This document shows positions 27,185 through 27,875 of a stretch of DNA of 64,000 nt, piece after piece (within the stretch, counting starts at the first letter, position 1; every line of letters begins with the position of its first letter). Made by a program: the position numbers and the translations under genes. Below the pieces are notes generated by a model. That model did not search any database. It saw only the letters and a list, made by a program, of their open reading frames with translations, and was not told the DNA's origin. Source of the DNA: the human T2T-CHM13v2.0 reference genome, Homo sapiens; assembly GCA_009914755.4 (NCBI GenBank), contig CP086569.2:1664001-1728000 (forward strand), in the 5' to 3' direction.

Positions 27185-27875
27185 GGCCAGGCGAAGTGGC
27201 TCACACCTGTCATCCCAGCACTTTGGGAGGCTGAAGCGGGCAGATCACCTGAGGTCAGGAGTTCGAGACCAGCCTGGTCACCATGGAGAAACCCCATCTC
27301 TACTAAAAATACAAAAAGACCAGGTGTGGTGGCTCACGCTTGTCATCCCAGCACTTTGGGAGGCTGAAGCAGGTGGATCACCTGAGGTCATGAGTTCGAG
27401 ACCGGCCTGGCCAACATGCAGAAACCCCGTCTCTACTAAAAATACAAAAAGGCCAGGTGTGGTGGCTCACGCCTGTCATCTCAGCACTTTGGGAGGCTAA
27501 AGCAGGCAGATCACCTGAGGTCAGGAGTTCAAGAACAGCCTGGCCACCATGGAGAAGCCCCATTTCTACTAAAAATACAAAAAGACCAGGTGTGGTGGCT
27601 CACGCCTGTTCTCTCAGCACTTTGGGAAGTCAAGGCAGGCAGACCACTTGAGGTCAGAAGTTCGAGACCATCCTGGCCAACATGGTGAAAGCCTGTCTCT
27701 GCTAAAAACACAAAAATTAGCCGGGCATGGTGGTGGGTACCTGTAGTCCCAGCTACTCGGGAGGCTGAGGCAGGAGAATGACTGGAACCTGGGAGGCGGA
27801 GGTGGCGGTGAGCCAAGATCATGCCACTGCACTGCAGCCCGGGCAACAGAGCGAGACTCCGTCTCCAAAAAAATT
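27185..27875 (+). repeat. Tandem array of 3 free Alu left monomers (~133 bp each) followed by one complete Alu; dimeric higher-order repeat
   Basis: Units start at ~27185, 27318, 27451 and 27586, each beginning .ccaggtgtggtggctcacgc.tgtcatc and ending ...ctactaaaaatacaaaaag. U1 resembles U3 (ccatggagaa.cccca) and U2 resembles U4 (ccaacatg..gaaa.cc.gtctc). The right arm is present only in the last unit (to ~27875). Confidence 0.8.

What the first reader, a model, noticed from the sequence alone, without database searches (positions are those of the whole stretch)
27185..27875. Second, independent Alu left-monomer tandem array (3 monomers + 1 full Alu), again with two alternating unit types
The same architecture appears 26 kb away. 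Units of ~133 bp each end in ctactaaaaatacaaaaag and immediately restart with (g/a)ccaggtgtggtggctcacgc. U1 resembles U3 and U2 resembles U4. Two such arrays in one 64-kb window suggests either a local propensity for this rearrangement or a shared origin (segmental duplication, then divergence).
Basis: seen in the sequence. Interest (0 to 1): 0.6.

Follow-up and report, generated by a model that had tools for sequence, protein, structure and literature searches.

The report
Old Alu with amplified left half
One ancient Alu insertion in primate DNA carries four head-to-tail copies of its 133-base left half, an ordinary Alu-derived minisatellite that arose independently of the similar array 26 kb away.

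Summary
The array is real. Four 133-bp Alu left monomers (B1-B4, 27185-27716) lie in exact register, followed by one right monomer and an A-rich tail. A single 14-bp target-site duplication (12/14 matches) brackets the whole structure, and none lies between units. It is therefore one insertion locus, not four separate insertions. All three internal junctions read TACAAAAA|G(G/A)CCAGGTGTGG.

The "two alternating unit types" claim does not hold here. B1-B3 are 88.7-91.0% identical to each other. B4 is only 80.5-83.5% identical to them, no closer than unrelated Alus in the window. TRF finds no 266-bp period. Instead, B2 and B3 look like recombinants, with a B4-like head (positions 1-21) and a B1-like body (27-133). 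That is the expected product of unequal crossing-over between two parental left monomers.

A shared origin with the 908-1840 array is refuted. That array has a different target-site duplication, a different junction and unrelated flanks, and shares no non-CpG variant with this one.

How the first left-left junction formed is unresolved. The window holds several other amplified Alus and large minisatellites, which weakly supports a local tendency to tandem duplication. This is a known kind of element (Alu-derived minisatellite), it is old, and nothing suggests a function.

The parts
27172..27185 (+). 5' copy of the target-site duplication, AAAGTCATGCACGG. The last G is ambiguous with the first base of the Alu.
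   Evidence: the repeat finder family D5 pairs it with 27878-27891 at 12/14 matches. Only 6 of 2000 shuffled flanks reach 12/14 anywhere.
27185..27317 (+). Left monomer B1, the outer parental type. Its head reads GGCCAGGCGAAGTGGCTCACAC.
   Evidence: Unit sequence and identity matrix. Rfam Metazoa_SRP hit at 27186-27302.
27318..27450 (+). Left monomer B2, a probable recombinant with a B4-like head (positions 1-21) and a B1-like body (27-133).
   Evidence: It is B4-like at 5 of 5 informative head sites and B1-like at 17 of 21 body sites. Fisher p = 0.0019. In a breakpoint-corrected permutation test, 23 of 2000 permutations did as well.
27451..27583 (+). Left monomer B3, a probable recombinant of the same kind as B2. 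It also shares C97 and A112 with B1.
   Evidence: It is B4-like at 4 of 5 head sites and B1-like at 17 of 21 body sites. The best split falls at 21|27, and 145 of 2000 permutations did as well. C97 is absent from all 47 other left monomers in the window.
27584..27716 (+). Left monomer B4, the left arm of the complete dimeric Alu. It is the most diverged unit.
   Evidence: It is 80.5-83.5% identical to B1-B3, which is background level. Non-CpG changes number 12 of 114.
27717..27866 (+). Right monomer of the Alu, starting TTAGCCGGGCATGG after a normal linker.
   Evidence: Sequence. Rfam Metazoa_SRP hit at 27720-27867, 57 bits. The sub-threshold mir-1268 hit at 27718-27769 is only the Alu right-arm head.
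27867..27877 (+). A-rich tail, AAAAAAATTAA.
   Evidence: Read directly from the sequence.
27878..27891 (+). 3' copy of the target-site duplication, AAAGTCATACATGG.
   Evidence: the repeat finder family D5; shuffle test.
27310..27324 (+). B1|B2 junction, TACAAAAA|GACCAGG. The same junction recurs at 27443-27457 (GGCCAGG) and 27576-27590 (GACCAGG).
   Evidence: Searching for TACAAAAAGRCCRGG finds exact matches only at these three places in the window. Chance expectation is 0.03.

Best explanation
This is a degenerate Alu-derived minisatellite at a single insertion site. The proposed history has three stages.

1. An AluS-type element sat at a target reading AAAGTCATRCAYGG. Early on, the locus came to hold two left monomers in tandem (a B1-type and a B4-type) ahead of one right monomer. 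They were joined by a non-homologous junction: the linker A-run fused directly to Alu position 1 (TACAAAAA|GRCC).
2. Misaligned pairing of these two roughly 133-bp homologous units, followed by unequal crossing-over near unit positions 22-26, produced recombinant units with a B4-type head and a B1-type body. Each recombinant carried a copy of the same junction. Two such steps raised the count to four.
3. The units have since decayed independently, mostly at CpG sites.

What is shown: one target-site duplication, exact register, identical junctions, the mosaic pattern, and independence from array A.

What is inferred: unequal exchange as the amplification mechanism, the order of events, and great age.

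The origin of the first left|left junction is not resolved. My rough split is:
- a non-homologous tandem duplication soon after insertion, about 0.4;
- a complete Alu inserted into the A-run of a pre-existing free AluS-type left monomer with a very short A-rich target duplication, about 0.35;
- a reverse-transcriptase template switch during insertion, about 0.15.

Nothing points to a function.
For: - A single 12/14 target-site duplication lies exactly at the two outer boundaries, and none lies between units.
- The period is exactly 133 with 0% indels.
- The three junctions are identical in length, and the junction motif is unique in the window.
- B1-B3 identities fall in the top 0.2-1.5% of background left-monomer pairs. 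They share the rare variants A51 (3/47 in the background) and A102 (4/47). No other Alu in the window combines C27, A51 and A102.
- B2 and B3 are mosaics with the same best breakpoint at 21|27. This is the predicted product of a B4 x B1 unequal crossover.
- All units are AluS-like left arms. Their non-CpG divergence of 4.4-10.5% lies inside the 2.6-14% range of the window's dimeric Alus, so they are not ancient FLAMs.
- At the CpG at positions 48-49, B1/B2 read TG, B3 reads TA and B4 reads CA. The B4-type and B1-type therefore separated while that CpG was still intact, which means early.
- Alu-derived minisatellites are a documented class. About 2663 of 7276 TE-derived human minisatellites are Alu-associated. 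Partial-Alu repeats at the 5' end of a full Alu are a recognised pattern, with 136 cases (PMC3389668 read; PMC9659126 read).
Against: - B4 is no closer to B1-B3 than unrelated Alus are. Sequence alone therefore cannot show that B4 and the B1 type descend from one copy.
- The mosaic test rests on five head sites. Four of them are CpG positions, where parallel decay is common. It is significant for B2 (23/2000) but only marginal for B3 (145/2000).
- B1 and B3 share C97, which is absent from B2. No simple two-step crossover order places that correctly, so a gene-conversion event or a parallel change is needed.
- The junction lacks the TTA that a homologous left-head/right-head exchange would leave, as in array A and the element at 49960. 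The first step therefore needs a different, unproven mechanism.
Confidence: 0.75

Rival explanations
1. Two-type higher-order repeat. A 266-bp dimer of two diverged left monomers was duplicated once, so that B1 pairs with B3 and B2 pairs with B4.
For: Three sites split 13|24: position 2 (G/A), position 97 (C/A) and the CpG site 112. B1-B3 is the most similar pair at 91.0%.
Against: - B2-B4 is 82.7% identical, which is the background median.
- B2 shares C27, T48, A51 and A103 with B1 and B3, not with B4.
- A B2+B4 clade appears in 1 of 200 bootstraps.
- TRF gives no 266-bp row here, although it gives periods of 255 and 390 for array A.
- Lag-2 identity (86.8%) is not above lag-1 identity (87.0%).
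Confidence: 0.07
2. Shared origin with the 908-1840 array. One ancestral array was copied by a segmental duplication and the two copies then diverged.
For: The general architecture is the same (several left monomers, then one right monomer), and the two lie in the same 64-kb window.
Against: - The target-site duplications differ: AAATTGTTCTAGYRTAAA versus AAAGTCATRCAYGG.
- The junctions differ. Array A keeps TTAGC/TTATC from the right-monomer head, and array B has A5 fused to GRCC.
- The flanks match only through Alus and simple repeats. The unique flanks 26845-27184 and 27892-28091 have no match anywhere else in the window.
- Every variant the two arrays share is a CpG change that is also common in other Alus. 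No non-CpG derived state is shared.
- A-versus-B identity has a median of 84.1% and a maximum of 88.0%.
Confidence: 0.02
3. Four independent retrotranspositions. Free left monomers, and finally a full Alu, each inserted into the A-run of the previous element.
For: - Unit boundaries do fall on the A-rich linker.
- A-runs are preferred L1 endonuclease targets (established knowledge).
- In control primate contigs, both left-left adjacencies found (L026 and L068) are a FLAM/AluJ-like monomer followed by a separate AluS.
Against: - All three junctions have the same length and sequence (A5 then G), with no variation in tail length and no detectable target duplication.
- B1-B3 share rare variants and lie in the top 0.2-1.5% of pairwise identity.
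- The units are AluS-like, not FLAM-like.
- The mosaic pattern of B2 and B3 is not expected from independent insertions.
- One such event, for the first junction only, remains possible and is counted inside the best explanation.
Confidence: 0.05
4. The whole four-left-monomer element was transcribed from a multimeric source gene and retrotransposed as one piece.
For: A single target-site duplication plus one A-rich tail is exactly what a single retrotransposition of a long Alu-like RNA would leave.
Against: - No other copy of the junction exists in the window.
- The degenerate junction pattern has 0 matches in the metagenome and genome collections. The equivalent normal left-right linker pattern hits at least 120 primate-derived contigs. 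This is weak evidence, because the primate DNA there is only a thin sample.
- A source carrying units already 10-20% diverged would be required.
Confidence: 0.05

Closest known systems
Alu-derived minisatellites / TE-derived tandem repeats (Jurka & Gentles 2006, Gene 365:21; Ahmed & Liang 2012, PMC3389668)
   Same: Part of an Alu is repeated head to tail inside one insertion locus and expanded in situ. The units are more alike than other genomic Alus (B1-B3). It fits the recognised pattern of a partial Alu repeated at the 5' side of a full Alu.
   Different: The unit is a complete left monomer, from position 1 to the linker A-run, rather than an arbitrary internal segment. The units are old and 9-19% diverged, so the array would fail the 95%-identity filter used in that survey.
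Intra-Alu unequal homologous exchange between the left-monomer and right-monomer heads. Examples in this window are 908-1840 and 49960-50405.
   Same: It gives extra left monomers inside one target-site duplication. Later amplification proceeds by unequal exchange.
   Different: Those junctions keep right-monomer head sequence: AAAAATTAGCYRGG in array A, and ...GGTGGCGGGCACCTGTAATCCCAGCACTTT in the element at 49960. Array B's junction lacks TTA and joins the A5 run directly to Alu position 1, so its first step was not this homologous exchange.
Free left Alu monomers (FLAM-A/FLAM-C) and monomer + Alu nested insertions
   Same: These are monomer-sized 7SL-derived units ending in an A-rich stretch. 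In control contigs L026 and L068, a monomer is followed directly by a separate full Alu.
   Different: B1-B3 carry AluS left-arm sequence (GATCACCTGAGGTCAGGAGTTCGAGACCAGCCTGGCCA...), with divergence typical of the window's dimeric Alus. They have no tails or target duplications of their own.
Chimeric retrocopies made by L1 reverse-transcriptase template switching or RNA ligation (U6/L1 and Alu/L1 chimeras; PMC13174262, PMC4476161)
   Same: Two RNA-derived segments lie in the same orientation. They are joined exactly at the 5' end of the first-copied template and sit inside one target-site duplication.
   Different: No Alu-monomer/Alu chimera of this type was found in the papers read here. The acceptor would have to end in the linker A-run. 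This is a lead only and was not tested.
Higher-order repeat evolution in satellite arrays (for example alpha satellite)
   Same: Unequal crossing-over creates recombinant inner units, and the edge units are the most diverged.
   Different: There are only four units, no higher-order period, and no sign of ongoing homogenisation.

Membership tests
Dimeric Alu insertion made by L1 target-primed reverse transcription | 7SL-derived left and right monomers joined by an A-rich linker | tested here: met
   B4 + linker CACAAAAATTAGCC + right monomer. Five Rfam Metazoa_SRP partial hits.
Dimeric Alu insertion made by L1 target-primed reverse transcription | A 3' A-rich tail followed by a target-site duplication that also sits immediately 5' of the element | tested here: met
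   The tail is AAAAAAATTAA (27867-27877). The duplication matches at 12/14 between 27172-27185 and 27878-27891. Only 6 of 2000 shuffles do as well.
Dimeric Alu insertion made by L1 target-primed reverse transcription | A target resembling the L1 endonuclease site TT/AAAA | tested here: inconclusive
   The target reads TTG|AAAG. It is A-rich at the start of the duplication but not a perfect match. The consensus is quoted from PMC13174262.
Alu-derived minisatellite (in situ tandem amplification) | Head-to-tail copies of part of one Alu in constant register, without separate insertion signatures | tested here: met
   Period 133, 3.9 copies, 0% indels. There are no internal target duplications and the junctions are identical.
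Alu-derived minisatellite (in situ tandem amplification) | Units are each other's closest relatives compared with other Alus | tested here: inconclusive
   Met for B1-B3 (88.7-91.0%, top 0.2-1.5% of the background). Not met for B4 (80.5-83.5%, background level).
Alu-derived minisatellite (in situ tandem amplification) | Short direct repeats bounding the repeated segment, which would seed slippage (the Jurka & Gentles model as summarised in PMC3389668) | tested here: inconclusive
   GCCRGG occurs at the unit start and again in the right-monomer head. However, the junction lacks the TTA that exchange within this repeat would retain.
Two-type higher-order (dimeric) repeat | Identity at lag 2 exceeds identity at lag 1, and a period of twice the unit length is detectable | tested here: not met
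   Lag-1 mean is 87.0% and lag-2 mean is 86.8%. TRF gives no 266-bp row. B2+B4 groups in 1 of 200 bootstraps.
Segmental duplicate of the 908-1840 array | Homologous unique flanks, the same target-site duplication, the same junctions and shared private variants | tested here: not met
   All four features are absent.
Free left Alu monomer (FLAM) insertions | Each monomer has its own A-rich tail of independent length and its own target-site duplication | tested here: not met
   Each of the three units ends in the same linker A5 run, and there are no internal duplications.
Free left Alu monomer (FLAM) insertions | FLAM-type sequence older than dimeric Alus | tested here: not met
   The units match the AluS-like left-arm consensus of the window's dimeric Alus, with 4.4-10.5% non-CpG divergence against a background range of 2.6-14%. 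No FLAM consensus was available to compare directly.
Copy-number-variable (polymorphic) VNTR | Alleles that differ in unit number within a population | not testable with these tools
   No primate genome or population data are reachable. The 9-19% divergence between units argues against recent turnover (inference).

The most novel reading that the evidence does not exclude
The first left|left junction fuses the linker A-run to exactly Alu position 1, inside a single target-site duplication, and joins two monomers as different as unrelated Alus. It could have been made at the moment of insertion. In that reading, the L1 reverse transcriptase finished a full Alu RNA and then switched to a second, left-monomer-type RNA ending in the linker A-run. 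The result would be an Alu-monomer/Alu chimeric retrocopy, which later served as the seed for unequal crossing-over. Such events would be a small-scale replay of how monomers were first joined into the dimeric Alu.
Probability: 0.15. Interest if true: 0.35.

Novelty: new member of a known kind. Interest (0 to 1): 0.15.

Why it matters
It matters little on its own. The locus is one more example of a transposable element turning into a minisatellite, a process already catalogued in the thousands for Alu.

Two points have modest value. First, the locus shows the intermediate anatomy clearly: parental edge units and recombinant inner units. Second, three junction types occur side by side in one window, which shows that extra Alu monomers arise by more than one route:
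- homologous left-head/right-head exchange (908-1840 and 49960-50405);
- exchange between the linker and the tail (44760-45245 and 53686-54150);
- non-homologous fusion at position 1 (this array).

Repeat annotators that label such units as separate Alu or FLAM insertions would overcount insertion events.

Tried and rejected
- **Segmental duplication with array A.** I searched 2 kb of each flank against the whole window. Only Alus and simple repeats matched.
- **Shared private variants between the arrays.** I aligned 57 left monomers and scored derived states. Everything the arrays share is a CpG change that is also common in other Alus.
- **Alternating unit types.** The identity matrix, an NJ bootstrap and the TRF periods give no support in this array.
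- **A dispersed family carrying this junction.**
  - The degenerate junction pattern found nothing in metagenome contigs or genome contigs.
  - A control pattern for the normal linker hit at least 120 contigs, so primate DNA is present in that collection.
  - That sample is far too thin to exclude rare copies.
- **Identifying the species or locus.** No fetched contig matches unique window sequence. All matches are repeats.
- **Local-propensity test.** I counted same-type adjacent monomers in the window and in 261 kb of control contigs. The window has 5 loci among roughly 62-72 monomers of each type, and the control has 5 among roughly 174. This is suggestive but not clearly different.
- **Jurka & Gentles 2006.** The paper is not held. 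Its content is cited only through PMC3389668 and PMC9659126.
- **One script timed out** and was rerun.

Full report
**What is there**

The window is primate DNA packed with Alus. About 72 left and 62 right monomers were detected in 64 kb. At 27185-27877 there are four left-monomer units of exactly 133 bp:
- B1, 27185-27317
- B2, 27318-27450
- B3, 27451-27583
- B4, 27584-27716

A normal linker follows, then one right monomer (27717-27866) and an A-rich tail, AAAAAAATTAA. TRF reports a period of 133, 3.9 copies, 87% matches and no indels. Rfam's metazoan SRP RNA model hits each of the five monomers separately, which confirms that they are 7SL/Alu-derived.

**One insertion locus, not four**

AAAGTCATGCACGG lies directly 5' of B1, and AAAGTCATACATGG lies directly after the tail. 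This 12/14 match is the only flank repeat of that quality. Only 6 of 2000 shuffled flanks reach it anywhere.

No direct repeat separates the units. All three internal junctions have the same length and read TACAAAAA|G(G/A)CCAGGTGTGG. That motif occurs nowhere else in the window, where chance expectation is 0.03.

The units match the AluS-like left-arm consensus built from the window's own dimeric Alus. Their non-CpG divergence is 4.4-10.5%, inside the window's range of 2.6-14%. That condition is not met.

**The alternating-type claim**

The pairwise identities are:

| Pair | Identity (%) |
|---|---|
| B1-B3 | 91.0 |
| B1-B2 | 88.7 |
| B2-B3 | 88.7 |
| B3-B4 | 83.5 |
| B2-B4 | 82.7 |
| B1-B4 | 80.5 |

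I compared them with 1081 pairs of unrelated left monomers from the same window, whose median is 82.4% and 99th percentile 89.3%. The three B1-B3 pairs fall in the top 0.2-1.5%. All three pairs that include B4 are ordinary.

A B2+B4 group appears in 1 of 200 NJ bootstraps and B1+B3 in 96 of 200. TRF finds no 266-bp period here, although it does find higher periods (255 and 390) in the other array. So "U2 resembles U4" is wrong, and "U1 resembles U3" is at best a weak tendency.

**What the pattern really is**

I looked at the sites where B1 and B4 differ.
- B2 follows B4 at all 5 sites in positions 1-21, and follows B1 at 17 of 21 sites in positions 27-133.
- B3 follows B4 at 4 of 5 head sites and B1 at 17 of 21 body sites.
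- The best breakpoint is the same for both, at 21|27.
- After correcting for the choice of breakpoint, 23 of 2000 permutations match B2's result and 145 of 2000 match B3's.

This is what unequal crossing-over between a misaligned B4 and B1 would produce: a new inner unit with a B4 head and a B1 body, flanked on both sides by copies of the original junction.

There are caveats. Four of the five head sites are CpG positions. B1 and B3 also share C97, which is absent from B2 and from all 47 other left monomers. No simple order of events explains that, so some gene conversion or a parallel change must be assumed.

**The first junction**

The junction joins the linker A5 run to Alu position 1 and lacks the TTA of the normal linker.

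An exchange between the homologous heads of the left and right monomers would keep that TTA. Array A does keep it (AAAAATTAGCYRGG...GGCTCACGCC). The element at 49960-50405 shows a right-head/left-body hybrid of the same origin. So the first step in array B was non-homologous.

B4 and the B1 type share no derived non-CpG state, and B4 is as far from B1-B3 as from any other Alu. At the CpG at positions 48-49 the two lineages decayed in opposite directions, to TG and to CA. The two types therefore separated at or near the time of insertion, or they were never one copy. Three routes fit:
- an early non-homologous tandem duplication;
- insertion of a full Alu into the A-run of a pre-existing free AluS-type left monomer, with only a 6-nt AAAAAG target duplication;
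- a reverse-transcriptase template switch during insertion.

Nested insertion is a real route. Both left-left adjacencies found in control primate contigs are an old monomer followed by a separate AluS. I cannot decide among the three routes without orthologous loci.

**Relation to the array at 908-1840**

The two arrays are independent.
- Array A has its own target-site duplication, AAATTGTTCTAGTGTAAA at 889-906 and AAATTGTTCTAGCATAAA at 1877-1894.
- Its junction type is different.
- Array B's flanks share only Alus and simple repeats with array A's surroundings.
- No non-CpG derived variant is shared with array B.
- A-versus-B identity is at background level, with a median of 84.1%.

Array A does contain two clear unit types:
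- A1, A2 and A4 carry CACAAGGTCAGGAGATCGAG.
- A3, A5 and A6 carry CACCTGAGGTCAGGAGTTTGAG and CTACTACAAATAC.

A3 and A5 are 94.4% identical and share a head deletion.

**Local propensity**

The window also contains the following tandem structures:
- four whole Alus in tandem inside one target duplication (7346-8640), sharing private variants; their pairwise identities rank 1, 8, 16, 92, 149 and 185 of 946 pairs;
- two left-right-right Alus, at 44760-45245 and 53686-54150;
- a left-left-right Alu at 49960-50405;
- large non-Alu minisatellites of 45 bp x 92, 58 bp x 62, 148 bp x 5.5 and 77 bp x 8.

This looks like a region prone to tandem duplication. However, the count of Alu loci with adjacent same-type monomers is not clearly above the control. 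The window has 5 such loci among roughly 62-72 monomers of each type, and the control has 5 among roughly 174. What stands out is the copy number, not the number of loci.

**Comparison with what is known**

Alu-derived minisatellites are an established class. The literature reports 7276 TE-derived minisatellites in the human genome, of which 2663 are Alu-associated. It also describes 136 cases of a partial Alu repeated next to a full Alu (PMC3389668; PMC9659126; both cite Jurka & Gentles 2006).

This locus belongs to that class. It is an old and degenerate example, and nothing suggests a function. I rate it as a new member of a known kind, with low interest.

Noticed in passing
window 7346-8640: Four complete Alus lie in tandem with a period of about 323 bp, inside one target-site duplication (AAAGGGATTTCAG / AAAAGGATTTCAG). 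They share private variants (TGTCGGG, GAATCTCTTAGAA, GACAAGAGGGAGAC). Their pairwise identities rank 1, 8, 16, 92, 149 and 185 of 946 Alu pairs. This is a whole-Alu tandem amplification, not four separate insertions.
   Followed up: partly
window 889-1894: The other left-monomer array has six units of two clearly different types, in the order I I II I II II. Type I (A1, A2, A4) carries CACAAGGTCAGGAGATCGAG and type II (A3, A5, A6) carries CACCTGAGGTCAGGAGTTTGAG. These differences fall at positions that distinguish Alu subfamilies. A3 and A5 share a head deletion of about 9 nt and are 94.4% identical. The whole array sits inside one 18-nt target duplication (16/18 matches). How two subfamily-like types came to lie inside one target duplication is unexplained.
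   Followed up: partly
window 49960-50405: This Alu has two left monomers. The second begins with right-monomer head sequence (TTAGCCGGGCTTGGTGGCGGGCACCTGTAATCCCAGC) and then switches to left-monomer sequence (ACTTTGGGAGGC). That is a clean product of left/right unequal homologous exchange. The flanking repeats are AAAACTTCTGA / AAAAATTCTGC.
   Followed up: partly
window 44760-45245 and 53686-54150: Two Alus carry a duplicated right monomer (left-right-right). Each sits inside a single target duplication: GAAAAGCACAAAAT / GAAAAGGAAAAAAT, and AAACTGTGG / AAACCTGTGG. The second right monomer starts at the linker or A-run, which suggests either exchange between the linker and the tail or insertion of a 5'-truncated Alu into the tail.
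   Followed up: no
whole window (for example 3397, 9367, 15345, 23497, 30566, 38071, 40801, 55390, and B1-B3): In the window, 14 left arms read TGTCATCCCAGCAC and 17 read the usual TGTAATCCCAGCAC. Among Alus in the fetched, mostly human-associated metagenome contigs the counts are 2 and 70. The variant is rare in right arms (2 against 24+13). All six CACTTGAGG-type elements carry it. It may mark a lineage-specific subfamily, in which case the window would not be human, or it may be a regional effect. It remains unexplained.
   Followed up: partly
window 11403-15315, 18713-22330, 31942-32760, 50620-51234, 16259-16758: There are large non-Alu minisatellites: 45 bp x 92, 58 bp x 62, 148 bp x 5.5 (96% matches), 77 bp x 8 (98% matches) and 235 bp x 2.1. 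Together they cover about 15% of the window, a density typical of VNTR-rich chromosome regions. That comparison is from general knowledge and was not tested.
   Followed up: no
window 15284-16014: A 382-bp segment holding the end of the 45-bp minisatellite plus an Alu is duplicated (1.9 copies, 85% matches). Both Alu copies share the unusual GGGAGTCCGAGGC.
   Followed up: no
L026 2231-2508 and L068 2750-3313 (metagenome contigs carrying primate DNA): In the control sample, both left-left adjacencies are an older FLAM/AluJ-like monomer followed by a separate AluS. This shows that nested insertion behind a free monomer is a recurring route to left-left structures.
   Followed up: partly
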